Positions 1,255 to 54,110 of a DNA stretch of 64,000 nt are shown piece by piece. The stretch spans positions 21,411 to 85,410 of the IMG/VR virus record IMGVR_UViG_3300045988_119030; one strand, 5' to 3'. Both the position numbers and the translations under genes were made by a program. A model generated the notes under the pieces. The model saw only the letters and a list, made by a program, of their open reading frames with translations, had not been told where the DNA came from and searched no databases. Within the stretch, counting starts at the first letter, position 1. Each line of letters begins with the position of its first letter. Source of the DNA: a virus.

Positions 1255-2253
1255 ATGAAATTTGGTGTTCGCGAAATTTGCGATGTCGTTTTAAAGGCTA
1301 AGGCAACTCAGAAGGTTGGTAATAAAATCTTTTATAGAAATGAGCCAGTTATTTATTTCGACACTTTAAAGACTTCCAGTATGGAAGGCGCTGCTACCAC
1401 TGTATATGCACAGGGAGGACGCGGTAATGCTCGTTTAGTAGCCTGGGAAGGTGAGCGTACTGTTACCTTTACGATGGAAGATGCTCTTATTTCTCCAGAA
1501 GGTTTCATGATTCTTTCTGGTGCTGGTCTTATTGAAGCAAGCGCTACTAGTACTATTAAACAGCACGTTACTGAAACTGTAGATAAGTCACAAATTGATA
1601 GTACAACTACTGAAGGACAAGTTACTATTCGTGTTTCTAAAAAGCCTTATCTTCCAACTGATGAACAAGAGAATTTTGCTTATGTTATGTTTGTCAAAGA
1701 TGGTGAAATTATCACTGAGCCTTTTATTCCTGTTCATGAGGAGTTAACTGCTAAGAAAGATACTAATGGTAATGAATATTTTGAATTAACTCTTAAAACT
1801 CCACATGATGATTATATTGCTGGTGCAGGTAATTATACTTTTAATGAAAAGAATGGCCTTCCAGCAGCCGCAGCATATGATAGTGCTATTGTTGATTATT
1901 ATACTGAAAAGGCTAGTGGCGCTCAACAGATTGAGATTACTGCTGATAAATTCGGTGGTAACTATTATCTTGAAGCCTCTACTTTATTCCGTGATCAAAA
2001 TGGTGTTGATATGCCTGCTGAATTTATTATTCCTAACTGCAAGATTCAGTCTAACTTCACCTTCACAATGGCTTCTTCTGGTGATCCTTCTACTTTCACC
2101 TTTACTATGGATGCTTTCCCTGACTATACTCGTTTTGATCACAGTAAGAAAGTTCTTGCCGCAATTCAAATTATTGAGGAAGGCGGAGCTAGTGACCTCC
2201 ATCGTACTATGACTGCTCACGATGAGGCTCACAATGCTTCTTTCACTGACTGA
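1255..2253 (+). CDS. Major structural protein of 332 aa, probably the major tail (tube) protein; major capsid not excluded. No TAG codons.
   Basis: Strong RBS AAGGAGG 7 nt upstream. Uninterrupted 999-nt ORF with no TAG, unlike its neighbours. Followed by a strong hairpin terminator. It lies 2 genes upstream of the chaperone and tape measure genes. Confidence 0.75.
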   Translation: MKFGVREICDVVLKAKATQKVGNKIFYRNEPVIYFDTLKTSSMEGAATTVYAQGGRGNARLVAWEGERTVTFTMEDALISPEGFMILSGAGLIEASATSTIKQHVTETVDKSQIDSTTTEGQVTIRVSKKPYLPTDEQENFAYVMFVKDGEIITEPFIPVHEELTAKKDTNGNEYFELTLKTPHDDYIAGAGNYTFNEKNGLPAAAAYDSAIVDYYTEKASGAQQIEITADKFGGNYYLEASTLFRDQNGVDMPAEFIIPNCKIQSNFTFTMASSGDPSTFTFTMDAFPDYTRFDHSKKVLAAIQIIEEGGASDLHRTMTAHDEAHNASFTD

Positions 2254-2426
2254 TGATTATTAAAGGTAAACGTTGGAACATCCAAAAGAAAACTGAGGAA
2301 GTAAAAAACAACAATACCAAGAAAGAGAAAAAAGCTGTTAAATCTATCAAGGTTCCTGAAGAACCTGTGATTTCTGAAGAAGAAATTGATGAGGTCAGCA
2401 AATTCTTTAATTTAGATAAAGAATAA
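2253..2426 (+). CDS. Small basic/acidic ORF of 57 aa overlapping the stop of the major structural gene (TGATG).
   Basis: ATG overlaps the TGA of the upstream gene. The Lys/Glu-rich product ends immediately before the terminator hairpin. It is below the ORF-track size cutoff. Confidence 0.3.
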   Translation: MIIKGKRWNIQKKTEEVKNNNTKKEKKAVKSIKVPEEPVISEEEIDEVSKFFNLDKE

Positions 2427-2432
2427 TTTTAT

Positions 2433-2468
2433 GGGAGAGAATAGAAATATTCTCTCCCATTTTTTTTA
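2433..2468 (+). terminator. Rho-independent terminator after the major structural gene.
   Basis: GGGAGAGAATA...TATTCTCTCCC perfect hairpin followed by a T9 run. Confidence 0.8.
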
Positions 2469-3656: not shown

Positions 3657-4190
3657 ATGGCTAAAATTTCATATACTAAATTAGGAATTGGCAAGGAAGA
3701 ATTGAATAAAGTTCAGACTGTAGAATATAATGATCAGACTATTGAAGTAAAGCAATATCTTCCAGTTGCAGAAAAGAGTGAATTAATTACTCGTGTATTA
3801 AATAATTCTGTAGATGAAGACAATGGATATTATAATCTTTTAAAGATGGATATGCATCTTGCGCTTGAGATTGTTTATGCTTATAGTAATATTAATTTTA
3901 CAGAAAAGCAAAAAGAGGATTCAGCGAAGCTTTATGATATGCTCAATGCTTCAAAGGTGCTTAATCTTATTATTGGTCTTATTCCAGAGGGGGAGTTTTA
4001 TTATTTAAATAAGACTGTCCATGAAATGGCTAATAATATTGTGGCTTATCGCAATTCCGCGATGGGAATTATGGAGCGCATTACTACTGATTATAGTAAC
4101 TTAAATTTTGATGCTAGCACGATTCAAAAAGAACTTGCCGATCCTAATAATATGACTTTATTGAAAGATATTCTCACTAAATTGGGCTAA
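3657..4190 (+). CDS. Putative tail assembly chaperone, 177 aa.
   Basis: RBS AAAGGAGG. Small acidic protein encoded immediately upstream of the tape measure gene, the canonical position for gpG-like chaperones. No TAG. Terminator-like hairpin downstream. Confidence 0.55.
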   Translation: MAKISYTKLGIGKEELNKVQTVEYNDQTIEVKQYLPVAEKSELITRVLNNSVDEDNGYYNLLKMDMHLALEIVYAYSNINFTEKQKEDSAKLYDMLNASKVLNLIIGLIPEGEFYYLNKTVHEMANNIVAYRNSAMGIMERITTDYSNLNFDASTIQKELADPNNMTLLKDILTKLG

Positions 4191-4235: not shown

Positions 4236-4277
4236 GGGGATAAGAGTATTTTATTACTCTTATCCCCTTTTTATTTT
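4236..4277 (+). terminator. Rho-independent terminator or attenuator between the chaperone and tape measure genes.
   Basis: GGGGATAAGAGTA...TACTCTTATCCCC hairpin followed by a T-rich run. Confidence 0.6.
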
Positions 4278-4320
4278 TATTTTGCAAAGTAAAAATTAAG
4301 AGAGAAAGGAGATTTTTTTG

Positions 4321-7300
4321 ATGGCTAAACAATTAAATAGTTATCAAGTTAATTTACAATTTAATGCAAATACTGCATAGGCGAAAACGCAATTGCAAGA
4401 TTTGCAAACAACTCTTGATGCTATTATAAAAGAGTCTGTAGCGGGGGTTTCTAAAGGAGACTTTAATTTAACTAAAAGATTAAATGAAGCGCAGATAGCG
4501 GCATCAAAACTACAAACCATTTTAGCTCAAACTACTAATGTAAAAACGGGAAAAATGGATTTAACAAGATTTTCTCAATCTTTAAAATAGAGTAATTTAG
4601 ATTTAAAAAAGATATAGAATAGTTTACTTGAACTTGGACCTTCTGGGCAAAAAGCTTTTATGTCTTTAGCTCAATCTATTGTTGAAGCTGATGTTCCATT
4701 AAAAAGAACAAATTTATTAGTTTCTGAATTATGGACAACTTTAAAGAATACAGCTCGTTGGTAGATTTCTTCTAGTGCATTGCATGCATTTATGGGTACT
4801 ATTCAATCTGCTTATGGATATGCCAAAGATTTAAATGAATCTTTAAATGATATTCGTATTGTTACTGGGCACAATATTGAATATATGGATAAATTTGCTG
4901 AAAGAGCAAATAAAGCGGCAAAAGCATTAAACGCTACTACATTAGATTACACTAATGCTTCTTTAATTTACTATCAATAGGGTTTAAGTGATGAAGAAGT
5001 AGAAAAAAGAACAGATATTACTGTTAAAATGGCTAATGTAATTAAACAAAATGCTGATATTGTTTCTGATCAATTGACTGCAATTTGGAATAATTTCTAT
5101 GATGGCTCCGATTCTCTAGAACATTATGCTGATGCGATGGTGCGCTTAGGTGCAGATACCGCATCTAGTTCTGATGAAATTGCTGGCGGTCTTGAAAAAT
5201 TTGCGGCAGTTGCTAATACAATTGGTTTAAGCTTTGATAATGCAGCAGCCGCATTGGCTACTATTACTGCTACAACTCGTCAAAGTGAAGATGTAGTAGG
5301 TACTTCTTTAAAGACTATTTTTGCTCGTATTCAAGGTTTAAAATTAGGTGAAACCTTAGAAGATGGCACTACTTTAAATCAGTACTCACAAGCTCTTGCA
5401 GCTGTTGGAGTTAATATTAAAGACTCCAATGGACAATTAAAGGATATGGATATCATTCTTGATGATTTGGGCCATAAATGGTCAACAATTAGTAAAGATC
5501 AACAGGTAGCTTTAGCTCAACAAGTAGCTGGTATCCGTCAATATAACCAATTAATTGCTTTAATGGATAATTTTGATTTTTATCAAGAAAATATTCAAAG
5601 AGCAAAAGAAGCAGATGGTTCTTTACAAGAACAAGCTGATATTTATGCTGAAAGCTGGGAAGCTGCTCGTGATCGTGTGCGTGCAGCAGCCGAAAGCATT
5701 TATGATGATTTGATTAATGATAAATTCTTTATTAGTTTGTCTGATGCGATAGCAGGAGCTTTAGATGCTATTGATAAATTGATTAGTTCTATAGGAGGTC
5801 TTCCGGGAGTAATTGCAGCTCTTGGAATGATATTTACTAAAGTGTTTAAAGTTCAAATGGGCGAGGGCATTAATAATTTAGTTTTTGGCCTTTAGTCTTT
5901 AGTTGGACTTACAAAAAAGAGTGCAGTTTCTCTCAAACAGGAAGCTTATAATCGAGCTTCTAATATGGCTTTTGATACTGGTACTGAAGTTGGAGATAGA
6001 TAGGGAGAATCATTAAAATAGACTTTAGATTTAAAGAAAAGAATATATGATATATCTGAAAATATTACAAAAGAGGAAAAACAATAGCTTGAAGGGTTAA
6101 TTGAAATTAATCGAGCTTATAATGAACAAGCTATAAAAGCAGCTCAAAAAAAAGATTAGGCTAGTGAGAATCTTCAAAATACTCGCATGGATCTTAGAGC
6201 GCGTATAAGAAGAAATTCTGCTACTGGAAAAGTAGAAAAAAATTTAAATACTTTTGGAAATGTTCAATAGCAAATGAGTGGAATTATTAAGACTGGTTTG
6301 CGAGGAACTAAAGCTTTAGATGGACTTAATAAAACATTAAAAGAAGGAGGTCCATTAGGAAAAGCTTTTGAGGGTAGAATAAATACAATTCAGCAGGCTT
6401 TAATTAAAGTAGATAGATCTGAAGCAGCTGAATCTATTGGAAATTTTGTTGAAGAATTAAAAAACGGAACTATAACAGTAGATTAGTTCTTGAAAAAAGT
6501 AAATAATGTTGTCACTAAAGAAAATTTAATGGCTGATGCTACATCCAAAGCGGCAACTATTCTTGAGGATGACTTTGGTAAAAAAGTTAAAATTAACGGC
6601 GAGGAATGTCAAAAGCTTGCTGAAGATATGACTGAAGTTATTGTAACAACAGATAAATTGAAAACTACTAATAAGCAAGTTGCTGGGTCTTATGAAAAAA
6701 TAAAAGCTGCAATTGAAAATTATAAAAATGCTACTGGAGATTTAGGGTAGAAATTAATTTCTATGGTTAATGGTTTTTCTTCATTGGCTATGGGATTGAC
6801 TTCTATTAAGAGTATTTTTGATACTTTATCTGATGAAGATATGTCATTCTTTGATAAACTTTTATCAGTTAGTATGTCTTTAGGCATGGGTATTTCTATG
6901 ACTGTTTCTGGCTTATCTACTATGACTAAAGCCTATAAAGAATTGGCAGAAGCTAAAACTTTAGATAATATAAAGACTTCGCTTAATATTGCTATTACAG
7001 AGATTAATAATGTGGTAAAAGCTTAGGCAGCCGCTAGAACAGGAACTCAAACAGTAGCTACAGATAGATAGGCATTGGCCGAAAGCAAACTTACAAAAAA
7101 TATAATATTGTAGAATGCTGCTTATTTAGTCCGTAAAACACATATGTCTGAAACAGCAGCTCTTGGATTAAGTTTAGCTGGTACTATATTAGTTGTAGTT
7201 GCGGCTGCAGCAGCTTTAGTACTTATATCTAAAGCAGTTTATAATTCCATTCATAAAGAAGAAATAGCGGCTGAAGCAGCAGCTAAAGCGGCTTCAGATC

Positions 7301-10300
7301 TTGGTAATGCTTATGATGAGTGTCGTGAAAAGTATCAGCAAATGATTGATGAGTTTAATGAATACAAAGATGCCACAGATACTTTGGATAATTTAACTAA
7401 AGGAACTCAAGAATATCGCGATGCTTTAGAGGAAGCTAATCAAAAGGCTTTGGAATTAATCCAAAATAATCCTGATAAATTTAATAAAGATGATTATTAT
7501 TGGGATGATAATAAATTAGTTATTAAAGATACAGCTATGTCTCGTGTAGCTGAAACCAATAGACAAGAGACAGCGGATTTATAGGCTGCTTCTGCTATGG
7601 CTAATGCTAATAATGCTCAAGCATAGGCAAATTTGTAGAAAGAAAATCTTGCTGATATTGTTAAGAGTTCTTTGCGTAATACAGATAATGTAAATAAATC
7701 TATTGATGCTTATTTAAATAGCGATAGAGTCGCTGTTGATAAAGAAGACTTAAAAGATATTCTTAATCTTGATAATGGTATAGACGATAAGGCTTTAGTT
7801 AATGTCCTTTGGCGCAATATTGATGCTTTAAATGAGTTAAGAAATACCATGGATGGGGTTGAAACCTCTTTTGATCTTGCTAGTAAAACCGCAGCAAGAG
7901 CGCAATGGTCTGGTTCTGGTAAAGAAAATACTAAAGCTGGAAAAATGGCGCTTGAAGGTGGCGGAAGATTATATAATAATCTTTATGCTGAGGGAGAAAA
8001 TGTTGTTAAAGGTTATTTATTAGACACTAATTGGGCTGCCTATGAAAAAATGAATAATTTGAATTCTCTAAAAGGATATGAACATTCTATTGAAAGCGAT
8101 AAAGTTAAATACAGTTATTATGATGAGAATGGTGAAAAGATAACTTAGGAAATCAGTAAAGAAGCTATTCAAATCGCGGCCGCAACCCAATATGCTAATG
8201 ATAGAATTGGAAAAGCTTTAGATAGCTTATATCAAAATATTGCTAAAGCTAATAAAGATGGCCTTGATAGTGTAGGGAAATATTTATCAACAGAAAATTT
8301 TGATAATATGACAAAAGGCGAGCTTGAACAATTTTAGGGATTAACTGATGATTAGTTAAAAGAATACGGAATTGATAAACAAGCTATTGAAGAAGCTAAG
8401 AAAGTTGTATTTGATGAAATTGATGGTCTTAATGAAGCTATGAGCGATTAGATCACTGTTGGAGTGAATAAGACTTTAAAAGAAAATATTTAGAATTTTG
8501 GCTCTGAAGGTAAAGATGCCTATATTAGTGCTATCAATCAAATTGGTGAATCTATTGATTGGAATGCTTTGTCTCCAGAATCTTAGGCTGAAGCTTGGAA
8601 TAAAATTTCTAATATTAATTGGTTTGATTTTGATGCTCAACGTCAAGCTGAAACTCTAATTAAAGAAATGGGCGGAGATGTTTCTGCTCTTGGAGATAAT
8701 TGGGATAAAGCTTTTAGTTAGATGCGCAAAGCTGGAGATGTTGTTCCAGTATTAACTGATATCAAAGAACGCCTTGATAAAATAGATAATATTACTAAAG
8801 ATATGAAAATCGGTAAGATTTTAGAAAAAGAAGATTATGATACTTTAGTAAATTATAATAGTGAATTGGCAAGATATTTTGCTATTTTATCTGATGGGTC
8901 TGCGGTTTTTGTAGGTGATCCTCTTGATTTCCAGTAGATGGTTAAATCCACTAAGCAGGATGAATTAAGTAGAACTATAAACGGATACCAAAATGCTATT
9001 GATTAGTATTATGCGGGAGCTGAAGAACTTAAAAAAGCGGGTGGATTAGATTAGATCCGAGAAGCTGATTCTGAAAATGTCAATAATCAATTAGCATTTT
9101 TAAAGACTTAGAACTATGATGAAACATAGATTTCTGATTGGATTGGTAAGCTTGCTAATTCTAGAGGATAGGATATTGACACTTTAAAAGCTATTGCTGA
9201 AGCAGTTAATGAAGTTGGTAATTCTTTCTTATCTAGCAAAGATAGTATAGAACAATATACAGCAAGTAGTCAATAGGCTATGAATGAATTGGCAATGACA
9301 GCTGAAACTGCTCAAGAAGCAGAAGAAATGCTTAAAAATGGCAGTATTAATGAAATGGCTTATAATATGAGTGCCATGCAACGTATGTCTAGTGAAAAAT
9401 GGGAAAATTTAGATTCATCTGAAGTAAATAAATATGCAGATTCTTTAATGAAGACAGCTAAAAGTTCTAAACTATTAAGTGATGAACTTGTAAATAATAA
9501 AGAGGCTGCTGAAGATGTAGCTCTTTACACTATGAAAATGAATAATGGTGTAGAGAAATTGAAAAATGGCTTTAGTGGATGGGCTGATGTATTAACGAAA
9601 TCTGATTCTGCTTCACAAGAATATTATGATGCAATGGTTGATATTAAAGACGCCATGTCTGATGTGCTTGGGGTTTCAGAAGAATTTTTAACTGATGAGT
9701 TTATTACTAAAAATTTAACTGATATAGGCAAGGCTGCAGAAGGCGATGCTGATGCTATAGATCGTTTGGCCGCTGCGGCAAGTAAAGATATTCTTTTAAA
9801 TGTTGATTTTGTTTAGGATAATAAACAATTACAAGATGTTTTATTATCAATGCATGATAAATTAGCGGCGGAAATTCCAGATATAAAAATTGGTACAACT
9901 TTTGAAGGTCAAGATGATTTAGTTAGATAGGCTCAAAACATTATCGGCACAGCAAAAATGACTGCTGAATAGGCAAATGCTTATTTTAGTGCCATGGGTT
10001 TTGAAACTAAATTTAAAGTTGAACCTCAAAAGATGGAATAGAAAACCCCGATAGTACGTTCTAGATAGACAATAGTTGGAGCGGGATTTGATAAACACGG
10101 AGCTCCCTATTGGGAAACAACAACAGAAACTTGGAATGATGGATATAGCATTCAAACAGGGTATGTCGATGCTATTGCTATGGCGACCTCTCCTGATGGA
10201 ACAAAAACTCCGATTATTGAAAGTATGACTAGTAAGCCTACTGGAATTATGAATAATAGTTCAAAAGCTAATAGAGGTACTACAGGCTCAAGCAAAGGCG

Positions 10301-13245
10301 GAGGAGGAAGTAAAAATAAACCAACCAAGGGAGACCTAACTAAAAAAAGTGATGTTGTTGATCGTTATAAAGAAATTACTGATAATATCAATGATACTAC
10401 TCGTGCTTTAGATAAAGCTAATAAATCGGTAGATAGACTTTGGGGTAAAGCTCATCTTGATGCGATGGCTAAAAGCAATAAGTTAACTTTAAAAGAAATT
10501 GATTTATTAAAACAAAAACAAAAAGAGGCTTAGGCTTATTTAAAGACAGATAAAGCTACTTTATAGCAAGCTGCGAAAAAAGCTGGAATTACTTTCACAT
10601 TTGATGAAGATGGGGATATCTCTAATTATACTGATTAGATGACTAAACTTTATAATTAGCTTATAGCTGCTTAGAATAAAGCAAATTCTTTTTCTACAAA
10701 AGATGCTCAAGACGCTTATAAAGAAGCAACTTTAGATCCGATTCAAGAGAAAATCAATAAGTTGAAAGATGCTATTAAGCAATATGAAGATACAAGAGAT
10801 TTAGTCGAAGAATTAACTGATGATATCCAAGATAAAATAAACGAATGGCAAGATAGAAATTATCAAATGCTTACTTATGAAGTTGAAATAAAGGTTCAAT
10901 TAGATGAAAATGATACTAAAAAATTAGAATATTATTTTGATAAATTAAGTGATAATATTTATAAAGCCGCTGAAGCTCTTGGATATTTACAAGGTCAATT
11001 TGATCCAGTAATTAGTCAATTAGGAACTTATGAGAATTTCTATAGTCAGTTAAACAATGCTTATTCTAATGGAGAAATTTCTCAAGAAAATTATATCGAA
11101 GGCTTACAAGACGTGTATGATAATACATTAGATAATTTAAATGCTTTGTAGGATTTAGATAAAGAAATGCTTGAATATTATGGTAATACTATAGATTTAG
11201 CAAATGATGAATTGTCTAAATATACAGATCATATAGAGCATTTGACTAGTGTATTGGATCATTATCGTTCTATTATTACTTTGTTAGGTAAAGATAAAGA
11301 TTATGATAAAGTTTTATCAGTTTTAAATGGAACTGCTTAGACTAAGAAAAATAATTTTGATACTTCTAAACAATGGTATGAAAGCTTGAAGCGTGAACGT
11401 GATGCAGCGGCCGCAGCTTTAGCCAGTTCAACTGATGAGGCTGAGCGCGAAGTGCTTCAAAAGAATTATGATGCTATATTAGCTGCGTTCGATGAGGCGG
11501 AAGAAGATATGCTTTCTAAAGCGGAAGAATATGGTGAAGCATTAAAAGAAATTCTTACTACAAAGATGGAACAAGCTGCGGATGAAATGAATAAGCAATT
11601 GAGCACTACCAAAGTAAGTATTAATGGTAATAACTTTAATATTTCCGGTTGGGATGCTTTAAATGATGCTTTGGATAGAATGTCTTCTTATCAAGATGAA
11701 TATTTAACAAAAACTAATTAGATTTATGAAATGAATAAATTACTTAATAATGTTAATTAGGCTATTGATAAGACAAATAATCAAGCAGCTAAAAATAGAT
11801 ATCAGCAATTTACTAAAGAAATTGAGTAGTTAAGAGATAAAGATAAATTAAGTCAATTAGAATTAGAAATTGCTTAGGCTAAATATAAAGTGCTTGAAGC
11901 GCAAATCGCGTTAGAGGAAGCTCAAAACGCAAAATCCACAGTTAGATTACAACGTGATAATGAGGGTAATTTTGGTTATGTGTATACCGCAGACCAAGAG
12001 AAAGTAAATGATGCGCAATAGGCTTTGGCGGATGCGGAAAATGATTTATATAACATTCGCCTTGATGCGACAAATAAATATGGTCAACAAAAACTTCAAT
12101 ATGAGAAAGAGTTGGCTGACAAACTTGCGGAACTCGATTAGAAAGCTGCGGAAGATGCCGTTTACCGCGAGACCACTTATCAACAAGAACGCGCTTTAGT
12201 AATTCAACAATATACTGATTTAATTACTACTGCTGGAAATCTTTATGCGAAAGCTCAAGAAGAGGATAGCAGAGTCGTTCAAGATGCTTGGGTAAATTCT
12301 TTTGATATTATCAAAAATAATAGTAATAGTTGGAAAGATACTATTACTGAAAACACTAATATTATCAATGATACATTTAAAGAATGGCAAGACAGTATGG
12401 ATGAAATTAGTAAAATTGTTGGTGATGATTTAAAAGATACTCAATAGAAAGTTAAAGATGTTACTGATGAAAGTAATAAACTTTATCAAGAAGTATCTAA
12501 TAAAGTTATCCCCGCTCTTGAAGGTGAGTTAAGTTCTGTCCGTAGCGCTACTGAAGCTTGGGCACAACATCGTCAGCAATTACTTGATACTATTAGAGCT
12601 TATGAAGAGCTTTTGAACGCTATTCAAGCAACATTGCGCGCTTAGAGTGGATTTGGTAGCGATAGTAGTAATTCTTCAACAAGAGTTGATTGGTCTGAAA
12701 AAATGGGTCAAGTTGAATATGGTTCTGATAAATATAATGAATATTATCAAAATCGTGAAGATGTTATTAAAGGAGGATATGACATTAAAACAGCTACAAA
12801 TGCTCGTGTTAATGCTTTTTATCAAAAAGGATTGACATTACCAATTACCCGCAATGGAAAAACTTATACTCATTTTACTGATATTCCTGATAGCGTTTGG
12901 AAACAATTAGTTGGGTTTAGAAGTGGCGGTTATACTGGCACTTGGAATGATGGTGGAAAATTAGCGTTCTTACATTAGAAAGAATTAGTTCTTAATGCTG
13001 ATGACACGGAAAATATGTTAGCTTCTATCCAATTAGTTAGATAGATCGCAAAACAATTAGACTTCAATAGCCAACAAATTTCTACTCTTTCTTCTTCTGG
13101 ATTTACTGTTAGTTCTCAAGATGGAACATTGGAATAGAATGTTAGAATTGAAGCTAGTTTCCCGAATGCTACTGATAGATACGAAATTCAAGAAGCATTT
13201 AATACATTAGTTAATGTAGCTTCTCAGTATGCCAATAGAAAATAA
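4321..13245 (+). CDS. Tail tape measure protein, about 2974 aa, with more than 40 in-frame TAG.
   Basis: RBS AAAGGAG, ATG at 4321. All frame-1 ORFs from 4393 to 12978 are fragments of one frame that contains only TAG interruptions, with TAA at 13243-13245. It contains a TP901-type TMP core (..DEIAGGLEKFAAVANTIGLSFDNAAAALATITATTRQSEDVVGTSLKTIFARIQGL..) and long coiled-coil-like regions. Confidence 0.85.
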
Positions 13246-39397: not shown

Positions 39398-39441
39398 AAG
39401 GGAGACATTCTTAACTGAATGTCTCCCTTATTTTTTTTTTA
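39398..39441. terminator. Bidirectional rho-independent terminator between the late operon and the convergent regulator gene.
   Basis: AAGGGAGACATTC..GAATGTCTCCCTT hairpin, with an A-tract upstream and a T10 run downstream. Confidence 0.8.
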
Positions 39442-43309: not shown

Positions 43310-43311
43310 AT

Positions 43312-44416: not shown

Positions 44417-44935
44417 TTACTTTGAAGTTGAGCCAAATCCTCCAAGGCGGTCACCAGAAGCATTATCGTCTTCGGTGATTAAATAAGGTTTAATAATACC
44501 TTGACCAATGACATCCCCTTTATGAAGTTGAATATCAAAAGGAGATAAATTAATCATTTGAAAATAAATATGTCCTTCATTTTCAGGATTATTATAATAG
44601 TCTGCGTCAATAATTCCAACGCCATTAGCAAGAATAAGCCAATATTTTAAAGGACAAGAACTGCGAACTGATAATTCAAGATATGTATTATCATTTAATT
44701 CACATTTAATTCCAGTAGGCACAAGAGTTGGTTTTGCTTTAAGATTTTTTGTCATATTACTCATATCTTCAAGAGAAATTGAATCAAAATAACGTGTTGG
44801 AAATCTATTTAGCAAATTCTTATATGCTGGAATTACAACATCTTCTGCTACTGTAAAATCATAGCCTGCGGATTTCGCTGTTTTTCTTACAGGCAAAACC
44901 GCGTCTGGATATTTGCTTACTCGTTCAAACTTCAT
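44417..44935 (-). CDS. dut: dUTP diphosphatase (dUTPase), 172 aa.
   Basis: Motifs RKTAKSAGYDF, GVGIIDADY, GDVIGQGII and C-terminal GGFGSTSK. No TAG. Confidence 0.9.
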   Translation of the reverse strand: MKFERVSKYPDAVLPVRKTAKSAGYDFTVAEDVVIPAYKNLLNRFPTRYFDSISLEDMSNMTKNLKAKPTLVPTGIKCELNDNTYLELSVRSSCPLKYWLILANGVGIIDADYYNNPENEGHIYFQMINLSPFDIQLHKGDVIGQGIIKPYLITEDDNASGDRLGGFGSTSK

Positions 44936-46016: not shown

Positions 46017-46511
46017 TCACAAATTTTCTTTTTTGTCAAGTTTTAAATTAATAATGTTCTAATTGCGGGAACCGCGCAAAGGCAAAGTGATATCTCTTTC
46101 CTTTTGGATATATGGTCCATCAATTAAGTAATCAGCGGTTTTTAATATATTTTTAATTCTAATATTATTACTATTCTTTAAATCATCATAAATATATCCA
46201 GTCCATATATATATTTTAATGTTTGGATATATTTTTTTAATTTCAGTAATAACTAAATTAGTTAAAAATTCATTTTCAGGGCAGAGAGGTTCTCCACCCA
46301 TAATACAAAGATTACGCTCAACATTATTCGCATTAATGGCAGTAATTAATTCATTTAATACTTTATTAGTAAATTCTTTGCCACCATTAAAATCCCACGT
46401 TTCAGGATTCTGGCATCCTTCACAATGGTGCGGGCACCCTTGTGTAAAAAATGATACACATACTCCGGGTGCCGCCGCCAAATCATTCTTTATAATTCCT
46501 GCATATTTCAT
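46017..46511 (-). CDS. nrdG: Anaerobic ribonucleotide reductase activating protein (radical SAM).
   Basis: CPHHCEGC radical-SAM cysteine motif, ..IMGGEPL... The listed ORF ends at a TAG (46058-46060). If TAG is sense, the protein extends 12 aa to TGA 46017-46019. Confidence 0.85.
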
Positions 46512-47197: not shown

Positions 47198-49453
47198 TCA
47201 TTCTAACATTCCTGTATGTTTTACTCTTGCTTCAACTTCTTTTTGCTTACCCCAGTTAAAAGCAGTTTTATAATTGCCCGTAAGATAACCAGTCACACGA
47301 CGTAATTGCTGAATATTATAGCTTCCGCACACTGGACAAGAATCATTAAATTCATCACAATAACCGCATTCAAGACAAGTATCATTAGGAACATTTACTG
47401 CAAAATAAGGGATATCGTGATCCATCGCATAATTAACAATAGTTTCAAGAGCATCAATATTGTGTTTTACAGTAGAATCAAGTTCAACATAAGTAATACA
47501 TCCTGCGGATGAATAACCAGTCAGCTCAGATTCAATATCAATTTTTTCAAACGGACTCATTTCTTTCCACACTGGAACGTGAATACTATTAGTGAAAAAT
47601 TCTCTATCACTAACATTAGGAATAATTCCATACCTTTCTTTAAATTTTGTCATAGCAGTATAACAAAGATTTTCTGCTGGAGTATAGTATACACCAAAAT
47701 TTAATTTATATTTTTCTTTGTATTCAGCGCATCTATCTTTAAATAATTGTTCAATTTGTTTAGCTAATTCCATTCCTTCTGAAGTGGTGTGGTCTTTGCC
47801 AATAAGAATTTGAAGAGTTTCAGCCAAACCTAACTGACCAATAGCAAGAGTTCCGTGCTTAAGAGCGGAACGAATTCCTTCTTCTGGAACATAACCTGCC
47901 ATAACATTATTTTCATACATAAATCTCGCGGAACCTGGATCTTGAGAACAAATCCATTCAAAACGTTCCATTAATTGAATACGTGCTTCATTGATTTTTC
48001 TATCGAGTAAAGACATAAATCGTTCTACACCAATTTTAGTCCGTTCTTCTTGGGATAATGACTTATAGTCATCCCAATTATCATTTTCATTTAGAGTAAC
48101 GGCCATCATCGCAAGAGTTGGAAGAATAATAGTAACTGGACAAATATTTCCACGTCCATCTTTAAGCTGACCGAATCCATTGATATCCCAACCATTTGCA
48201 GTTCTACATCCCATCGTAGAAAAATAAGTGCGAGGATCATTAATATCATATCCAGCATTACCAGACCAATCAACATTTGCATAATTAGGATAAAGGCGTC
48301 TCGCGGTGCTTTCTAATGCTAATCTATATAAATCATAATTAGGATCACTAGGCTTGCGGTTAACACCTTTCATACATTGGAAAATTCCACAAGGAAAAAT
48401 TGAAGTTTTATGTAATTTACCAAGACCTTCAATAGAAACATCTAATAATGCCTTAGTTACCATTCTGCCTTCTGGTAAAGTGCAAGTGCCATAGTTAATG
48501 CTTGTAAATGGTAATTGGTTGCCACTACGAGATTGTAAAGTATTAAGATTATGGTAAAGGCCTTCTGCAGCTTGATGAGTTTCGCGAGTGGTCATTTTCA
48601 TAGCGTATTTATATGCTTTTGGAAATGATTTATAAAAATCATCATCAATAGGAGTTTCTTTACTGTAACAACCATCATATTTACTCATATCTAATCCTTC
48701 ATATAAAAATTCAATACCATCATTGAAATGTTTAAAGAAAGATTTTCTTACATAAGGAACCATAGTCCAATCTAAGTGAGTAGCACTAACTCCACCAAAC
48801 TAACAAAGACTTTGGATTTGAAAAATAACAGCAATTAATTGAAACGCTGTATTAATTGAACCAGCAGGACGAACATCTGCTTGACGAGTATTAAATCCAT
48901 TAGCAAGCAAATTATCAAAAGGAATACTTAAACAGTTATGAGAACCGACATAATAAGAATCAAGATCGTGAGTATAAATAATATTATCAATATGGTTCTT
49001 ACGAGCCATAGGTGAAAGTAAATAATCAAGTGCAAGTTGTTTGGTAACAACACTACTTGCTTCCCCTATACGACCACCGAATGAATGTTCATCAACATTA
49101 GCATTTTGATTTTTTACATTATTACCATCGAGCTTTTCACGAATTGCTTTAATAAAATCATCTTTTTTATTACGAGCAACTTCTTTTTTATATCTATATC
49201 TGATATAAGCACGAGCAACATCGCGTCGCTCAGAACGCATTAAATAATCTTCAATCCAATCTTGAAGATCTTCTACTCCGACGCTTCCATCGGGGAAATG
49301 ATTTATTTGTCTTTCAATGTCTTCCGCGATATCTTTTGCGGTATCATCTTCATATAATTTACCATCAACTTCAATAAATGCTTTATTTATTGCATTAATA
49401 ATTTTCTTTTTATTAAATTGAGTTATACTTCCATCACGTTTAATAATATACAA
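47198..49453 (-). CDS. nrdD: Anaerobic ribonucleoside-triphosphate reductase (class III), about 751 aa, one in-frame TAG at 48800-48802.
   Basis: N-terminal ATP-cone (MYIIKRDGSITQFNKKKI..). C-terminal Zn and glycyl-radical region (CLECGYC..CPVCGS..RVTGYLTG). ORFs 48800-49453 and 47198-48763 are in the same frame and are joined through TAG plus 12 sense codons (..FGGVSATHLDWT-MVPY..). Confidence 0.9.
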
Positions 49454-49528: not shown

Positions 49529-50104
49529 TTATTTATCTTGGTCCATTTCCGCCCATTGTTTAACTTTTTGAGTTAAAAGATTAACAATATTATTGTAATC
49601 TTCCAATGTTTCATTTGTCACAATATTGCATTTAATATTATTCATTAGTTGAAATTGAATTTCATCAGCAGAGTATCTTCTAATAATTTCATCTACATCA
49701 GGATTTTCTTCTCTGTTTAATTGCCTAATTAAGCGTGTCTTTCCTTTAGTGGTGATATAATATATCTCCAATTCAATTCTATCATCTTTAAGAAGACTTA
49801 TAATTCCTTCAGGATTAAAAACACCAATATTAACTTTACTATCAGACAAACTATCAATACTTGTGCCATAATACCAATTATTAAAAGAAGTGGTTTCTAA
49901 CATTTTATTTTCATCAATTAAAGTTAAAAATTGATCATCTGAAACAAAATGATAATTTTTGTCTGCTATTTCTTTTTCACGCTTCGGGCGCGTAGTGTGG
50001 CTTATAATAGGATTTAGATATTCCTCTAAGTGGGAAAAGGTAGCCATCATTAGGCTATCTTTTCCTGCACCAGATTTTCCACATAATGCAATAATTTTAT
50101 ACAT
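49529..50104 (-). CDS. gmk: Guanylate kinase-like nucleoside monophosphate kinase, about 191 aa.
   Basis: P-loop ALCGKSGAGKDS and ISHTTRPKREKE..YHFVS, typical of the guanylate kinase family. The probable start MYKII at 50104 overlaps the polymerase stop, with RBS GGAGG inside the polymerase 3' end. Confidence 0.75.
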   Translation of the reverse strand: MYKIIALCGKSGAGKDSLMMATFSHLEEYLNPIISHTTRPKREKEIADKNYHFVSDDQFLTLIDENKMLETTSFNNWYYGTSIDSLSDSKVNIGVFNPEGIISLLKDDRIELEIYYITTKGKTRLIRQLNREENPDVDEIIRRYSADEIQFQLMNNIKCNIVTNETLEDYNNIVNLLTQKVKQWAEMDQDK

Positions 50105-53100
50105 CTTCTTCAATTCCTCCTTGATAACGAGCATCTTTTAAAACTAAATCGCCATTGGATAAAATTTCATCAATTTTATATAATTGATGTCCTTCAGAAG
50201 AAGCATATTTTTTTGACATGAAATTATCTCCATTACGAATTCCAGAGACTACAATCATATTTCCGCGATTAAACCAAGATTTTTCAATAATATGTTTAGT
50301 TCCGTCTGCTCCGCGCTCTGAAATTTGTTTATCAAATAAACTAAAATATTCTTTTCTAAATTTTACTTCTACAGGACCGGTAGTAGTAAGGATAGTCACA
50401 GTGCTTTTAGTTTTATTTTTTGCTATACAAGTTCCGCAAATCTTAAATAACTTATAAATATGAATAGTATGATTTCCTTTAGTGAAACTTCTATCAATTA
50501 TTGGATCTTCTGGAAGTTTAAAGAAATCTACAAATCCATATTTATCATTGTTAATATTATTCAATTCATGAGTATGATAATAATAACAAAGGACTTCCAT
50601 TTCCCAAGCAGATAAATTATTTTTATTAGCATATTTATCCCAATCATCTTTAAATATTTTCATATTTAGATTATTCAAAATTTCATCTTTGTTATTAGCA
50701 ATCCAAGCGCGAAATATATCCATCCACTTTTGGTATATATTATTCCAAACATTTTCACTTAAAAAATAATTAGTTCCATCAAATTGAATATTATTATCTT
50801 CTCCAATTTCTATTAAGAAATTAATTGCTCGTTCATCAAGTTGATATAAACTGTTATTTTTTGCAGTTTTACAAATTGCTTTTAAATATCTATTAAATTC
50901 ATAAATACGGCGAGCCATAATTTGATTTTCATTTTCTTCTGGAAGAAGATCATACTTCATAAGTCCGCCCATATTTTGAAGAGTAATTCTTTTCTTTTTG
51001 TCGCAGGTTTCCCAAATATACCAAATCATTAATTCTTTTCTATCCATCATATTATCAAAGGCTCCACCTTTAATAAGAGAAATCATAGCTTGTTTACCTG
51101 GCTTAATACGGTATAAAAATTCTTTAGGATTTGAATAAGGACGATTAGCAATAATTGTATTAACTAATTCATCACCAACATTCAGCATACCTTTTAATCC
51201 GAAAAGAATTTTATTATTTTCAATATCAGGAGCAAATCCAAATTTAGATTTGTTAATATCAGGAAGACCTACTTCAATTCCTGCTTTTTGAATGTCACTA
51301 ATAGCCTTGGCAATTTTTCCATAATCAGTGGCCGCGGTTTTGCGGATTTTGCCACTTTTGTCAGGAAGATCTTCAAATGTTACTCCATTAGCTAAATCAT
51401 CGCCTTCAGGAGCATAAATATCGACAATCTCTTCTTCGCTATTATCTTCAAGGGAACCACTATTAACAATTAAACAAGCGGTATCCCAATAGATAGGATT
51501 AAAATGAATTACTAAGTAAATCATTTGAATTGCTACAAATGAATAAGGAAGGGAGTGGTTAAGGCTAAATGCATATCCTAATTGAGGAGCAACTGCAATT
51601 TCCCAAAAGTATTCAGCAGATTTTTCATTATCAAATTTACTAAATACTTGTTCTTTCAATTGTGGAATTTTAGCCATTTGCTTTTTAGCAACAATCTTAC
51701 GCGCAGTATTAGCTTCACCAAGAGTAAAATGAGCTACATCCATAAGAACTTCCATCATTTGCTCTTGAATAGGACAGCATCCATAATATTTATCACAATG
51801 CTTATGCATCTTATCAATTAATTCTTGCGGAAGACGCTGAGCCTTCATTTCATCATCAAATACTTTAATACCCGAATGTTGAATGCGATAATATCTATCT
51901 TGCTGTGATTCCTTACCTTTTTCAGACATAAGACGCATCATAGCATTTGCCGCCGTCATTTCCATAGGGTCTTGGGGTTTAAGGCGTTTCGCGATTGCTA
52001 AACCAACTCCCGTAGAAAATTGGAATACATCTAATACATCACCGGCGGCGAGGTGGTCCCAAATTGCTTGATCAGTTGTATCTATTACTTCTGGATGAAT
52101 ATATTTATTATAAAATTCTCGTAAAGATAATTCTGGAATTTGCTTATCTTTTAGAAGTAATTGATAACAAGTAATAATTTTGTCAGAAGCTTCAGTTACA
52201 AGGAAGTCATATTTTGTGTCTCCAGCAGCTTCCGCCTTATGAAGATCCCAACAAGTAATCATATCTCCACTAGGAGTTCTCATAAATGATGCGGTATCAA
52301 ATGGATCGTCGCCATACAAAATAACGCCAGAAGCATGAGAAGAACGTTTATTAACCATTCCTTCAATATATACAATAATATCCAAAAGACCAGGATATTG
52401 ATTTACTTCTCGAATAAATGCTTGAACGGGTTTACGGTCTTTTTTCTCATTACCATAAATAACATCATGGACAGGCCATAAAAATCCACGTTCTTGGGGA
52501 ATTAATGAAGACATATATTGAGCATTATCAACATCAATTCCTTCTGGGAATTCTTCACTTCTATATCCACGGCAAGCAGTTAAAATACTTTGTTTAGTGC
52601 CTTCAGTTCCAAATGTAGCAACTTGAACCAATCCCAATTCTCCGCGTTCTTTTCTAATTGCTTTGAAAATCGCGGGACGTTTACTTGGAGCAAGGTCAAT
52701 ATCAATATCAGGCAATTCCGCGCGCTCCTTATTTAAAAATCTCCAATAAGGAAGTCCCCAACGAATTGGGTCTAATTGAGTAATGCCTAAAAGATAATTA
52801 GATAAAAAGCCAGTCGCTGAACCACGTCCAGGACCTACAATACTTCCACATTCCCAAAATAAATTAATATAATGTTGGAAAGTATTAAAATAAGCAAAAA
52901 GACAATCATCTAATTTTTCGCCAATGTCTTTTATAATATCAGCTTCAATTTCAAGTCGCTCTAAATAATTTTTATTATCATAAAGTTGCTTTTCTTGTAA
53001 AGCTTTAATACATTCATTTACCCAATATCGCTCTTGAATATTATCGCTATTAATTAAAGAACAGATAATTGGATATTTATCAAACCAGTTTGAAGGAATG

Positions 53101-54110
53101 AATCCTTTCTTATAATCCTTTATTTCAACTTTTGGAATAATTTGTTTTCTTTCTAATGAATAAAAAGAAATTTTATTTTGGATCTCTTGAGTGTTATCAA
53201 GAATCCAATTTATCAATTCTTTTCCTGTTTTATTATCTTTATCCCAATCATTAGCATAAGGTTCCATTAATTCAAAAATTTCATCACTTGTCATTAAGTA
53301 AGTAAATTTATAAAAATCGTCAACCTCTCTTTCTCCTGGCTTAGAAGTAAGATATGCTTTATGAATGGGTCTATCTTCTTTAGTTAAATAATGCGCATCT
53401 GTTCCAACTACCATTTTTAAATCAAATACCTTGGCGATTTGATAAATTTTATGATTTACAATTATTTGCTCAGCGTCAGTAGATGGCGCACATTCAAGAT
53501 AAAAATCATCTTTTCCAAATACTTTAATACAAAAATTGATATAATCAATTATTTGATTGTAATATTTAGTTTGAGTTTCAATATCTTTATTTAATTCAGC
53601 TTGGAACATTGGTAAAATACAGCTACCAAGTTCTCCACCAATACAAGCAGTTGTTGCTATAACATGCCCTTTATATTGTTCCATTACCATTTCAAGTTCA
53701 CTTTTTAAAGTAGGAACTCGTTCCATACGTCTATCAACATAACTATGAATCCAAGCAATAGAACTTAATTCTCTTAATGCCTTATGTCCAATAGCATCTT
53801 TAGCGATAAGAATAAAGTGATAATATTTTTGTCCATTATCTCTTGTATCAGTGAGATAAATTTCATTACCAAGAGCAATAGTAAAATCAGGATTTTCTTC
53901 TCTTATTTTCTTTGCATATTGATTTACTTCCATATGGGCAGAAAGACACTCATGGTCTGTAATAGTTATTCCTGATAAGCCTAATTCTATTGCTTTGTCA
54001 ATAAGAGCTTGTGGTCTATTGATACAATCTAATAGACGTAAATTTGAATACATTGTATGATTGTGAATCCCGAAATATGATCTCATTCGCACATTCCTTT
54101 CATCTTTCAT
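50097..54110 (-). CDS. dnaE: DNA polymerase III alpha subunit (family C replicative polymerase, DnaE-like with N-terminal PHP domain), 1337 aa, no TAG.
   Basis: N-terminal PHP signature (FGIHNHTMYSNLRLLDCINRPQALIDKAIELGLSGITITDHECLSAH). Length and domain order match PolIII alpha. Uninterrupted 4014-nt ORF. Confidence 0.85.
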   Translation of the reverse strand: MKDERNVRMRSYFGIHNHTMYSNLRLLDCINRPQALIDKAIELGLSGITITDHECLSAHMEVNQYAKKIREENPDFTIALGNEIYLTDTRDNGQKYYHFILIAKDAIGHKALRELSSIAWIHSYVDRRMERVPTLKSELEMVMEQYKGHVIATTACIGGELGSCILPMFQAELNKDIETQTKYYNQIIDYINFCIKVFGKDDFYLECAPSTDAEQIIVNHKIYQIAKVFDLKMVVGTDAHYLTKEDRPIHKAYLTSKPGEREVDDFYKFTYLMTSDEIFELMEPYANDWDKDNKTGKELINWILDNTQEIQNKISFYSLERKQIIPKVEIKDYKKGFIPSNWFDKYPIICSLINSDNIQERYWVNECIKALQEKQLYDNKNYLERLEIEADIIKDIGEKLDDCLFAYFNTFQHYINLFWECGSIVGPGRGSATGFLSNYLLGITQLDPIRWGLPYWRFLNKERAELPDIDIDLAPSKRPAIFKAIRKERGELGLVQVATFGTEGTKQSILTACRGYRSEEFPEGIDVDNAQYMSSLIPQERGFLWPVHDVIYGNEKKDRKPVQAFIREVNQYPGLLDIIVYIEGMVNKRSSHASGVILYGDDPFDTASFMRTPSGDMITCWDLHKAEAAGDTKYDFLVTEASDKIITCYQLLLKDKQIPELSLREFYNKYIHPEVIDTTDQAIWDHLAAGDVLDVFQFSTGVGLAIAKRLKPQDPMEMTAANAMMRLMSEKGKESQQDRYYRIQHSGIKVFDDEMKAQRLPQELIDKMHKHCDKYYGCCPIQEQMMEVLMDVAHFTLGEANTARKIVAKKQMAKIPQLKEQVFSKFDNEKSAEYFWEIAVAPQLGYAFSLNHSLPYSFVAIQMIYLVIHFNPIYWDTACLIVNSGSLEDNSEEEIVDIYAPEGDDLANGVTFEDLPDKSGKIRKTAATDYGKIAKAISDIQKAGIEVGLPDINKSKFGFAPDIENNKILFGLKGMLNVGDELVNTIIANRPYSNPKEFLYRIKPGKQAMISLIKGGAFDNMMDRKELMIWYIWETCDKKKRITLQNMGGLMKYDLLPEENENQIMARRIYEFNRYLKAICKTAKNNSLYQLDERAINFLIEIGEDNNIQFDGTNYFLSENVWNNIYQKWMDIFRAWIANNKDEILNNLNMKIFKDDWDKYANKNNLSAWEMEVLCYYYHTHELNNINNDKYGFVDFFKLPEDPIIDRSFTKGNHTIHIYKLFKICGTCIAKNKTKSTVTILTTTGPVEVKFRKEYFSLFDKQISERGADGTKHIIEKSWFNRGNMIVVSGIRNGDNFMSKKYASSEGHQLYKIDEILSNGDLVLKDARYQGGIEEDV

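What the first reader, a model, noticed from the sequence alone, without database searches (positions are those of the whole stretch)
1255..54110. TAG use is strongly non-uniform
Abundant proteins and core replication enzymes avoid TAG. Some early genes still need it.
- No TAG: the major structural protein (1255-2253), the 553-aa fiber (25712-27373), dut, gmk, primase and the 1337-aa polymerase. The first two are each followed by a strong terminator.
- More than 40 TAG each: the tape measure protein and the giant fiber.
- 1-6 TAG: nrdD, the SF1B helicase, recJ, dnaB, ruvC and the LytTR regulator. These are early-module genes, so TAG decoding must be available before late expression.
No suppressor tRNA or release-factor gene is visible in this window, so that determinant must lie elsewhere in the genome or in the host. 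The skew suggests TAG decoding is slow or limiting and selected against in the most highly expressed genes.
Basis: partly seen in the sequence, partly recalled or inferred. Interest (0 to 1): 0.6.

Follow-up and report, generated by a model that had tools for sequence, protein, structure and literature searches.

The report
Uneven amber-codon use in recoded phage
This is part of a large human-gut phage that reads the TAG stop codon as glutamine, using TAG freely in most tail genes, rarely in replication genes and never in its most abundant virion proteins; this is a well-documented example of a known kind of phage recoding, with one less-documented detail.

Summary
TAG is a sense codon here. 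At window TAG sites, close relatives carry only TAG, CAG or CAA, so TAG means glutamine.

TAG use differs strongly between genes (G=183, df 54, p=6e-16). It supplies 32.5% of Gln codons in the late module and 9.2% in the replication module. It is absent from seven genes with a strong AAG/CAG codon bias (0/70 against 250/917, p=7e-10). These include the tail tube gene and, just upstream of the window, the capsid gene.

One count is wrong: the 2581-aa protein has 25 TAGs, not more than 40.

The pattern recurs in relatives down to the published phage phAss-1, so selection maintains it.

The missing determinant is phage-encoded. Same-species genomes carry an array of 20-23 tRNAs that includes a tRNA with anticodon CUA. 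The array lies downstream of a TAG-poor putative early arm and upstream of the replication genes.

Best reading: TAG is the least-favoured Gln codon. Its frequency in a gene depends on when the gene is expressed relative to the suppressor and on how much protein is needed.

Uneven use of recoded stops is already published (Borges et al.). TAG avoidance in the top-copy virion proteins is the modest addition.

The parts
1255..2253 (+). Tail tube gene (YomU_Tube): 0 TAG, 6 CAA, 5 CAG, AAG/K 0.55
   Evidence: The phAss-1 orthologue has 0 TAG / 2 CAA / 12 CAG.
2431..2460 (+). Terminator-like hairpin (13 bp stem, T8) after the tube gene and a 57-codon ORF
505..1230 (+). YomV-like virion gene, TAG-rich: 9 TAG of 14 Gln codons
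2492..3598 (+). 368-aa late gene, the most TAG-rich: 15 TAG of 22 Gln codons (p=4e-5 high)
3657..4190 (+). 177-aa YomO-like gene: 0 TAG, AAG/K 0.53, followed by a terminator at 4236-4267
4318..13245 (+). Tape measure protein (PhageMin_Tail), 2975 aa: 56 TAG, 119 CAA, 13 CAG
13361..17059 (+). 1232-aa tail protein: 25 TAG of 45 Gln codons (p=2e-5 high)
25712..27373 (+). 553-aa putative fibre: 0 TAG of 16 Gln codons, no codon bias (AAG/K 0.12), terminator at 27432-27463
   Evidence: P=0.0018 against the late background. No family match.
27492..35237 (+).
38983..39390 (+). Holin: 1 TAG, 10 CAA. Last gene of the late block, with a bidirectional terminator at 39392-39435.
39439..40155 (-). Response regulator with a weak LytTR domain: 1 TAG
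43871..44383 (-). RuvC-like gene (weak match): 3 TAG
44417..44935 (-). dUTPase: 0 TAG
46017..46511 (-). nrdG (anaerobic RNR activase): a single TAG 14 codons before the stop
47198..49453 (-). nrdD: 1 TAG of 25 Gln codons
49529..50113 (-). Guanylate kinase: 0 TAG
50097..54110 (-). DnaE/YorL-type DNA polymerase: 0 TAG of 50 Gln codons
55031..56224 (-). SF1B (PIF1/RecD-like) helicase: 1 TAG
58174..59922 (-). RecJ-like exonuclease: 6 TAG. TAG is retained in every clade examined.
60593..61696 (-). DNA primase (phrog_47): 0 TAG of 13 Gln codons
61883..63415 (-). DnaB-like helicase: 2 TAG

Best explanation
The window is part of a roughly 190-197 kb SPbeta-like siphovirus from the human gut that uses genetic code 15 (TAG = Gln). 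Same-species genomes encode their own amber-suppressor tRNA (anticodon CUA) in a large tRNA array. TAG behaves as the least-favoured synonymous glutamine codon. It arises mainly from CAG by a single C-to-T change and persists where it costs little.

Two selective axes set its frequency in each gene:
1. Timing. Genes read before the suppressor builds up must stay compatible with the host's standard code. This gives a gradient: putative early arm about 7%, replication and nucleotide-metabolism genes about 9%, late tail genes about 33% of Gln codons.
2. Expression level. Each TAG risks termination by host RF1, so the loss multiplies with TAG number. The proteins needed in hundreds of copies (capsid, the 305-aa gene upstream of the capsid gene, tube, a putative tail chaperone) and a few abundant replication-arm proteins (YorF-like, AAA_24) are kept TAG-free.

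Shown: the code, the distribution, its conservation, and the presence and position of the tRNA. Inferred: the timing classes, competition with RF1, and the expression levels.
For: TAG = Gln:
- At window TAG sites, relatives of at least 90% identity carry TAG 825, CAG 26, CAA 16 and nothing else (one search gives the amino-acid view).
- CAG sites are TAG in relatives ten times more often than CAA sites (3.6% against 0.36%).

Gradient:
- Late 176/541, replication 21/228, p=7e-13. The result holds at equal GC3, p=1e-11.
- Early arm 13/198.

Expression axis:
- Seven genes with AAG/K of at least 0.45 have 0/70 TAG against 250/917 elsewhere, p=7e-10.
- Strong terminators follow three TAG-free late genes.

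Conservation:
- Polymerase 0, 0, 0, 1, 1 TAG, primase 0 throughout, and recJ 6, 5, 8, 1, 1 across clades with 98-46% polymerase identity.
- In phAss-1 (capsid 50% identical) the capsid gene is 0/0/15, tube 0/2/12, polymerase 0/22/37 and TMP has 110 TAG. Late genes are 30.4% and the nrdD-to-pol block is 2.6%.

Suppressor:
- An identical tRNA(CUA) occurs in two same-species genomes. It is also present in the 74% and 61% clades and in phAss-1.

Published framework: Borges et al. preprint 10.1101/2021.08.26.457843.
Against: - There are no expression data. The labels 'early', 'middle' and 'highly expressed' rest on position, orientation, codon bias and terminators.
- The 553-aa fibre gene is TAG-free without any codon bias. 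Neither axis explains it (p=0.0018, about 0.04 after correction for 21 late genes).
- TAG-rich genes lie in a RiPP-like cluster upstream of the tRNA array, which does not fit a simple positional gradient.
- The tRNA array was read in same-species genomes linked by overlapping loci, not in the window's own contig.
- About 15 kb of the genome is unread, so a release factor or an aminoacyl-tRNA synthetase is not excluded.
- In crAss-like phages the tail tube family is preferentially recoded, so the expression rule is not universal.
Confidence: 0.62

Rival explanations
1. Timing only (the published code-switch model). TAG-free genes are simply those translated before the suppressor tRNA is available, and TAG marks late genes so that structural and lysis proteins cannot be made early.
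For: - The putative early arm is nearly TAG-free and the replication module is low.
- The tRNA array sits upstream of the replication genes on the same strand. In phAss-1 two Sup tRNAs lie directly upstream of nrdD.
- The model is set out.
Against: - The TAG-free capsid, tube, 305-aa and YomO-like genes lie inside the late operon, between TAG-rich neighbours.
- The holin has only 1 TAG in 11 Gln codons, so the lysis gene is not preferentially recoded.
- Heterogeneity within the late module is itself significant (G=69.6, p=2e-7).
Confidence: 0.15
2. Neutral composition or gene history. TAG density follows local AT pressure or time since acquisition, and TAG-free, CAG-rich genes are recent imports from standard-code sources.
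For: - The TAG-poor early arm has GC3 0.40 against about 0.15 elsewhere.
- A flotillin-like gene has 18 CAG and 3 CAA.
- The 553-aa fibre gene could be a swapped module.
Against: - At equal GC3 (below 0.20), late and replication genes still differ 5.7-fold.
- The TAG-free genes are core, syntenic genes. They are TAG-free in every clade, including phAss-1.
- The polymerase has ordinary AT-rich codon use (48 CAA, 2 CAG) yet no TAG.
Confidence: 0.08
3. Chance or annotation artefact. Small Gln counts and wrong gene calls create apparent TAG-free genes.
For: - Several individual genes are not significant on their own (primase p=0.28, gmk, and dut with 3 Gln codons).
- Some single TAGs lie within 15 codons of the stop and could be former stop codons.
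Against: - The global tests are extreme.
- The same genes are TAG-free in independent lineages.
- TAG positions are spread evenly along genes.
Confidence: 0.03

Closest known systems
Code-15 (TAG to Gln) recoded gut phages with late-gene-biased recoding (Borges et al., preprint 10.1101/2021.08.26.457843; Peters et al. 2022, PMC9523058)
   Same: - In-frame TAG read as Gln.
- Phage-borne suppressor tRNA.
- Structural genes recoded, replication genes less so or variably.
- Stop codons are TAA and TGA.
- Low-GC genome.
- Gene-family tests of TAG against CAA/CAG were already applied in that work.
   Different: - Here the highest-copy virion proteins inside the late operon are TAG-free and codon-biased. 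In crAss-like phages a tail tube family is preferentially recoded.
- The holin is not enriched in TAG.
- No release factor or aminoacyl-tRNA synthetase was found in about 182 kb.
Phage phAss-1 and the proposed Phassvirus group (Babkin et al. 2023, PMC10607447; GenBank OQ749652)
   Same: - Capsid protein 50% identical and DnaE-type polymerase 38% identical.
- Same architecture: late genes on one strand; small genes, then the tRNA array with Sup-CTA, then metabolism and replication genes on the other.
- Same gene-by-gene TAG pattern.
- The paper states that TerL and the TMP carry TAG, and names the capsid protein and the polymerase among proteins analysed without TAG.
   Different: - phAss-1 is 136 kb with 44.5% GC and three Sup tRNAs. 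This phage is about 195 kb with 30% GC, and one tRNA(CUA) has been seen so far.
- The paper does not analyse or interpret the uneven distribution.
Bacillus phage SPbeta and relatives
   Same: - Collinear virion module (YonD, YonB, YomW, YomV, YomU tube, YomO, TMP).
- YorL-type polymerase (38.7% identical) and YorF.
   Different: SPbeta uses the standard code and infects Bacillus. This phage is recoded, larger and of unknown host.
Theta (minimal HDV-like) ribozymes next to phage tRNAs (Kienbeck et al. 2024, PMC10879173)
   Same: An HDV-like match starts at the base after the 3' end of the tRNA(CUA), identically in two genomes.
   Different: - The score is 26-28 bits against a gathering score of 44.
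- No such match follows the Sup tRNA in the 61% clade or in phAss-1.
- Cleavage has not been tested.

Membership tests
Genetic code 15 phage (TAG = Gln) | In-frame TAGs whose read-through restores long ORFs | tested here: met
   ORF coverage rises from 43.8 to 67.4 kb. The longest ORF rises from 1338 to 2982 codons.
Genetic code 15 phage (TAG = Gln) | TAG positions correspond to Gln in homologues | tested here: met
   In relatives of at least 90% identity the sites carry TAG 825, CAG 26 and CAA 16, with no other codon. Q is the commonest replacement at 70-90% identity.
Genetic code 15 phage (TAG = Gln) | Phage-encoded suppressor tRNA with anticodon CUA | tested here: met
   L276:20674-20746 and L280:12490-12562. 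These are same-species genomes, not the window's own contig. There is none in the window.
Genetic code 15 phage (TAG = Gln) | Host uses the standard code | not testable with these tools
   The only leads are phage contigs binned into 'Mollicutes' and 'Clostridium sp.' MAGs. A standard-code host is inferred from the TAG-poor early arm and the phage-borne suppressor.
Genetic code 15 phage (TAG = Gln) | Peptide evidence for Gln at TAG | not testable with these tools
   Needs proteomics.
Code-switch model (recoding as a timer of late and lytic genes) | Early genes are compatible with the standard code | tested here: met
   The putative early arm has 60 genes, 53 without TAG, and TAG/Q of 6.6%. Early timing itself is inferred.
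Code-switch model (recoding as a timer of late and lytic genes) | Structural genes use the recoded stop | tested here: inconclusive
   17 of 21 late genes in the window do. The tube, capsid, 305-aa, 197-aa and YomO-like genes and the 553-aa fibre do not.
Code-switch model (recoding as a timer of late and lytic genes) | Lysis genes are preferentially recoded | tested here: not met
   The holin has 1 TAG of 11 Gln codons. The lysozyme-like gene 57281-58120 has 0 of 11.
SPbeta-like / phAss-like siphoviruses | Collinear Yon/Yom virion module and YorL-type DnaE polymerase | tested here: met
   Precomputed Pfam hits to YonD_N, YonB, YomW, YomV_2nd, YomU_Tube, YomO and YorF. Polymerase 38.7% identical to SPbeta YorL. 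Capsid protein 50% identical to phAss-1.
Theta / HDV-like ribozyme flanking a tRNA | Match to an HDV-like covariance model at the tRNA 3' end | tested here: inconclusive
   27.7 and 26.1 bits against a gathering score of 44, with exact adjacency. Absent in L285 and phAss-1.

The most novel reading that the evidence does not exclude
TAG number per gene may act as a built-in multiplicative attenuator that helps set virion stoichiometry, not only timing. Proteins needed in hundreds of copies carry none. Low-copy giant proteins carry dozens.

A worked example, from my own arithmetic and general tail-assembly rules:
- A 2975-aa TMP implies a tail of about 450 nm, which needs about 660 tube subunits for 3-6 TMP copies.
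- A read-through of only about 0.91-0.92 per TAG over 56 TAGs would by itself give that 110-220-fold ratio.

The gene-specific TAG load is conserved from this phage to phAss-1.
Probability: 0.25. Interest if true: 0.6.

Novelty: new member of a known kind. Interest (0 to 1): 0.4.

Why it matters
- It gives a clean, statistically strong and evolutionarily replicated case. A reassigned stop codon behaves like a costly synonymous codon whose use depends on both the timing and the amount of expression.
- This refines the published 'code switch as lysis timer' picture. Here the lysis gene is not enriched in TAG, and the top-copy late proteins are exempt.
- It points to a large, uncharacterised family of roughly 170-200 kb recoded phages of gut Firmicutes-like hosts. 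IMG/VR holds 164 portal relatives.
- For annotation pipelines it shows that TAG-free marker genes (capsid, tube, polymerase) can hide recoding.

Tried and rejected
- Megablast of the polymerase gene against GenBank phages found nothing. Only protein-level relatives exist.
- Walking the genome used all 8 viral scans, 1 metagenome scan, 1 genome scan and 3 protein searches before the tRNA array was reached. ARAGORN found no tRNA in about 270 earlier loci of the family.
- One protein search with three proteins concatenated returned hits for the first segment only.
- PDB sequence searches with the tube and capsid proteins found nothing.
- The local Pfam copy lacks the PF27xxx SPbeta families, so I relied on the precomputed hits.
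- A literature search for yonB/yonD/yomU returned only unrelated papers.
- The genome-collection scan found only phage contigs binned into MAGs, so no host was assigned.
- I looked for a release factor or an aminoacyl-tRNA synthetase in the larger proteins of every arm and found none.
- I considered TAG clustering at gene ends and rejected it, because the positions are uniform.
- I considered whether (TAG+CAG)/Gln is constant across genes, with TAG merely replacing CAG. It is not: polymerase 4% against capsid 83%.
Full report
**What the window is**

The window has 29.9% G+C. Reading TAG as sense raises coverage by ORFs of at least 100 aa from 43.8 kb to 67.4 kb. The other two stop codons give no such coherent gain.

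I called 55 genes using Gram-positive-type AAAGGAG ribosome-binding sites and ATG/GTG/TTG starts. Every gene ends in TAA (38) or TGA (17).

The window is bases 30,693-94,692 of a 190,642-bp human-gut metagenome contig. Its genes are collinear with Bacillus phage SPbeta:
- Virion module: YonD, YonB, YomW, YomV, YomU tube, YomO and a PhageMin_Tail tape measure protein (TMP).
- Replication genes: a YorL-type DnaE polymerase (38.7% identical) and YorF.

IMG/VR holds a large family of relatives of 100-200 kb, with 164 portal matches. One same-species contig of 197,006 bp has the polymerase gene split across its ends, so the assembly is circular or permuted. All relatives tested are also TAG-recoded.

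**TAG means glutamine**

I aligned window proteins to the DNA of relatives and read the subject codon at each window TAG site.
- In relatives of at least 90% identity the site is TAG 825 times, CAG 26 times and CAA 16 times, and never anything else.
- At 70-90% identity, TAG (148) and CAA (135) dominate (amino-acid view).
- Window CAG sites are TAG in relatives in 3.6% of cells. CAA sites are TAG in 0.36% of cells. This fits CAG-to-TAG as the one-step route.

**The observation**

The window has 217 TAG, 552 CAA and 69 CAG codons. TAG use is far from uniform: G=183, df 54, p=6e-16, and permutation p<5e-5.

- TAG-free: tube 1255-2253, the 553-aa gene 25712-27373, dut, gmk, primase and the polymerase.
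- TMP has 56 TAG.
- nrdD 1, SF1B helicase 1, recJ 6, dnaB 2, RuvC-like 3, response regulator/LytTR 1.
- The 2581-aa giant protein has 25 TAGs, not more than 40.
- Terminator-like hairpins with long T runs follow the tube gene (2431-2460) and the 553-aa gene (27432-27463). A third follows another TAG-free gene, at 4236-4267.
- The window has no tRNA.

**Two separate axes**

The first axis is the module.

| Module | TAG / Gln codons | Share | Genes with TAG |
|---|---|---|---|
| Late block (+ strand, to 39.4 kb) | 176/541 | 32.5% | 17 of 21 |
| Replication block (- strand) | 21/228 | 9.2% | 10 of 23 |

- The odds ratio is 4.75, p=7e-13.
- Among genes with GC3 below 0.20 the odds ratio is 5.7, p=1e-11. 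Base composition is therefore not the cause.
- Within the replication block only the polymerase is individually low (0/50, p=0.008). recJ is on the high side (6/30).

The second axis cuts across modules.
- In the 80 kb of the source contig that I could read, seven genes have a distinct codon bias: AAG/(AAA+AAG) of 0.47-0.81 against about 0.15, with raised CAG and GAG.
- The seven genes are a 305-aa gene, the YonB-like gene, a 197-aa gene, the tube, the YomO-like gene, an AAA_24 gene and the YorF-like gene.
- Together they have 0 TAG in 70 Gln codons, against 250/917 for all other genes (Fisher p=7e-10).
- The YonB-like protein matches proteins annotated as major capsid protein in several Bacillus phages. 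The capsid and tube, the two highest-copy virion proteins, are therefore both TAG-free inside an otherwise TAG-rich operon.
- The late block stays heterogeneous even without its TAG-free genes (p=3e-4). Three genes have 56-68% TAG.
- TAGs are spread evenly along genes.

**The pattern is conserved, so selection maintains it**

| Gene | TAG count in clades with 98, 76, 63, 53 and 46% polymerase identity |
|---|---|
| Polymerase | 0, 0, 1, no orthologue, 1 |
| Primase | 0 in all |
| recJ | 6, 5, 8, 1, 1 |

The published phage phAss-1 (OQ749652, 136 kb, 44.5% GC) proved to be a distant relative. Its capsid protein is 50% identical and its polymerase 38% identical. Its full genome shows the same picture.

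| phAss-1 gene | TAG / CAA / CAG |
|---|---|
| Capsid | 0 / 0 / 15 |
| Tube | 0 / 2 / 12 |
| Polymerase | 0 / 22 / 37 |
| nrdD | 0 / 8 / 21 |
| recJ | 4 / 2 / 14 |
| TMP | 110 / 114 / 25 |

- Late genes use TAG for 30.4% of Gln codons. The nrdD-to-pol block uses it for 2.6%.
- Heterogeneity is G=446, p=5e-43.

**Where the decoding determinant is**

I walked outward from the window through overlapping loci of same-species genomes.

To the left of the late operon, and divergent from it, lies an arm of more than 40 kb.
- It holds about 60 small genes preceded by ribosome-binding sites.
- Its composition is different: GC3 0.40, CAG 58% of Gln codons, AAG/K 0.54.
- It has almost no TAG (13/198).

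Further along the same strand come:
- a RiPP-like cluster (two radical-SAM genes, a radical-SAM/glycosyltransferase fusion and YcaO);
- then an array of 20-23 tRNAs whose second-last member has anticodon CUA (L276:20674-20746 and L280:12490-12562).

The tRNA(CUA) is identical in the two genomes and scores 49.8 bits against the Rfam tRNA model. It has G73 and an unpaired 1:72 position. These features are compatible with, but do not prove, glutamine identity.

The strand then continues through RNA-repair, topoisomerase and ligase genes into the window's replication block.

Arrays in the 74% and 61% clades also contain a tRNA(CUA). phAss-1 has one in its array and two directly upstream of nrdD.

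No release factor or aminoacyl-tRNA synthetase was seen in about 182 of about 197 kb. About 15 kb is unread. The array was not read in the window's own contig.

**Interpretation**

The known model holds that early genes are translated in the host's code, and that a suppressor tRNA then allows recoded late genes to be read. That model accounts for the module gradient.
The replication genes lie downstream of the tRNA array and are probably not the earliest genes.
- It does not explain the TAG-free capsid and tube genes inside the late operon.
- It does not explain a holin with only 1 TAG in 11 Gln codons.

TAG decoding cannot, however, be very inefficient, because a TMP with 56 TAGs has to be made. 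My arithmetic runs as follows.
- A 2975-aa TMP implies a tail of about 450 nm and about 660 tube subunits for 3-6 TMP copies.
- A read-through of about 0.91-0.92 per TAG would by itself produce that ratio.
- This is an inference from general tail-assembly rules, not a result.

The 553-aa fibre gene is TAG-free without codon bias and remains unexplained. Possible causes are module exchange, high expression suggested by its terminator, or chance.

**Comparison with what is known**

- Uneven use of recoded stops, tests of TAG against CAA/CAG per gene family, and the remark that stop codons are the least efficient codons are all in Borges et al..
- Babkin et al. note that TerL and the TMP of phAss-1 carry TAG. 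They name the capsid protein and the polymerase without TAG but do not analyse the point.
- The contrast with crAss-like phages, where a tube family is preferentially recoded, and the link between TAG avoidance and codon bias appear to be additions rather than new principles.

Verdict: a real and well-supported feature, and a new member of a known kind.

Noticed in passing
L276:20747-20801 and L280:12563-12617 (same-species genomes, outside the window): A sub-threshold HDV-like ribozyme match (27.7 and 26.1 bits, gathering score 44) starts at the base after the 3' end of the tRNA(CUA). This is the arrangement published for theta ribozymes. There is no such match after the Sup tRNA in the 61% clade or in phAss-1.
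   Followed up: partly
L276:1551-10879 (also L275, L280:23-2466): A RiPP-like biosynthetic cluster lies between the TAG-poor arm and the tRNA array: a 499-aa radical SAM gene, a 467-aa gene, a 692-aa radical-SAM/glycosyltransferase-2 fusion, YcaO and a 292-aa gene. In one 180-aa gene all 9 Gln codons are TAG.
   Followed up: no
L284:5819-5909 (74% clade); phAss-1 62445-62532 (L278:12445-12532): Some relatives carry a long (88-91 nt, class II-like) tRNA with anticodon CUA, sometimes alongside a normal-length one. TAG might be charged with a second amino acid in those phages.
   Followed up: no
L280:13735-17888: Just after the tRNA array lie a 675-aa Flg_new-repeat protein and two proteins with the Mtd_N domain. 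Mtd is the variable tropism protein of diversity-generating retroelements. No reverse transcriptase was looked for.
   Followed up: no
L250:2310-7892: A possible RNA-repair set: RNA ligase, an RlaP-family nucleotidyltransferase and a metallophosphoesterase. It could serve tRNA repair or removal of the cyclic phosphate that a ribozyme cut would leave. That link is speculative.
   Followed up: partly
window 46017-46511, 43010-43330, 63405-63716, 17052-17228: Several genes with a single TAG have it 3-14 codons before the TAA/TGA stop (nrdG at codon 150 of 164, and others at 99/106, 96/103 and 55/58). These may be former TAG stops that are now read through, giving products that work in either code.
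   Followed up: partly
window 58174-59922: recJ keeps in-frame TAGs in every clade examined (6, 6, 5, 8, 1, 1, and 4 in phAss-1), unlike its replication-module neighbours. No explanation.
   Followed up: partly
L001:16384-21104 and 6488-8386 (another strain): In one strain the polymerase, the DnaB-like helicase and the SF1B helicase are interrupted or shortened next to GIY-YIG and NUMOD3 homing-endonuclease genes. This suggests mobile introns or inteins that vary between strains.
   Followed up: no
L217:4758-6143: A flotillin-like SPFH/Band 7 gene (461 aa) has 18 CAG, 3 CAA and 0 TAG. Its codon use is unlike its neighbours, so it may have been acquired from a host.
   Followed up: partly
L276:15270-15320: A sub-threshold match to the twister-P1 ribozyme (41 bits, gathering score 67) lies inside the tRNA array.
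   Followed up: no
window 13250-13278 and 39392-39435: Two perfect hairpins score as terminators on both strands. One lies after the TMP gene and one at the convergent junction at the end of the late block.
   Followed up: no
window 25116-25697, 25712-27373, 27492-35237, 37923-38948: By eye, four tail-fibre-like proteins share a similar N-terminal motif (K-F/I-x-x-G ... Y-F/Y ... D-T ... Y). This suggests a common attachment domain with swapped distal parts. Not tested.
   Followed up: no
L160, L161: Near-identical phage contigs (163,874 and 52,896 bp) are binned into GTDB MAGs named 'uncultured Mollicutes bacterium' and 'Clostridium sp.'. This is a weak host lead or a binning artefact.
   Followed up: no
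L217:6841-7545: A 234-aa protein has an N-terminal half made almost entirely of Cys-Ser-Gly repeats (CSGGC/CSGSC).
   Followed up: no
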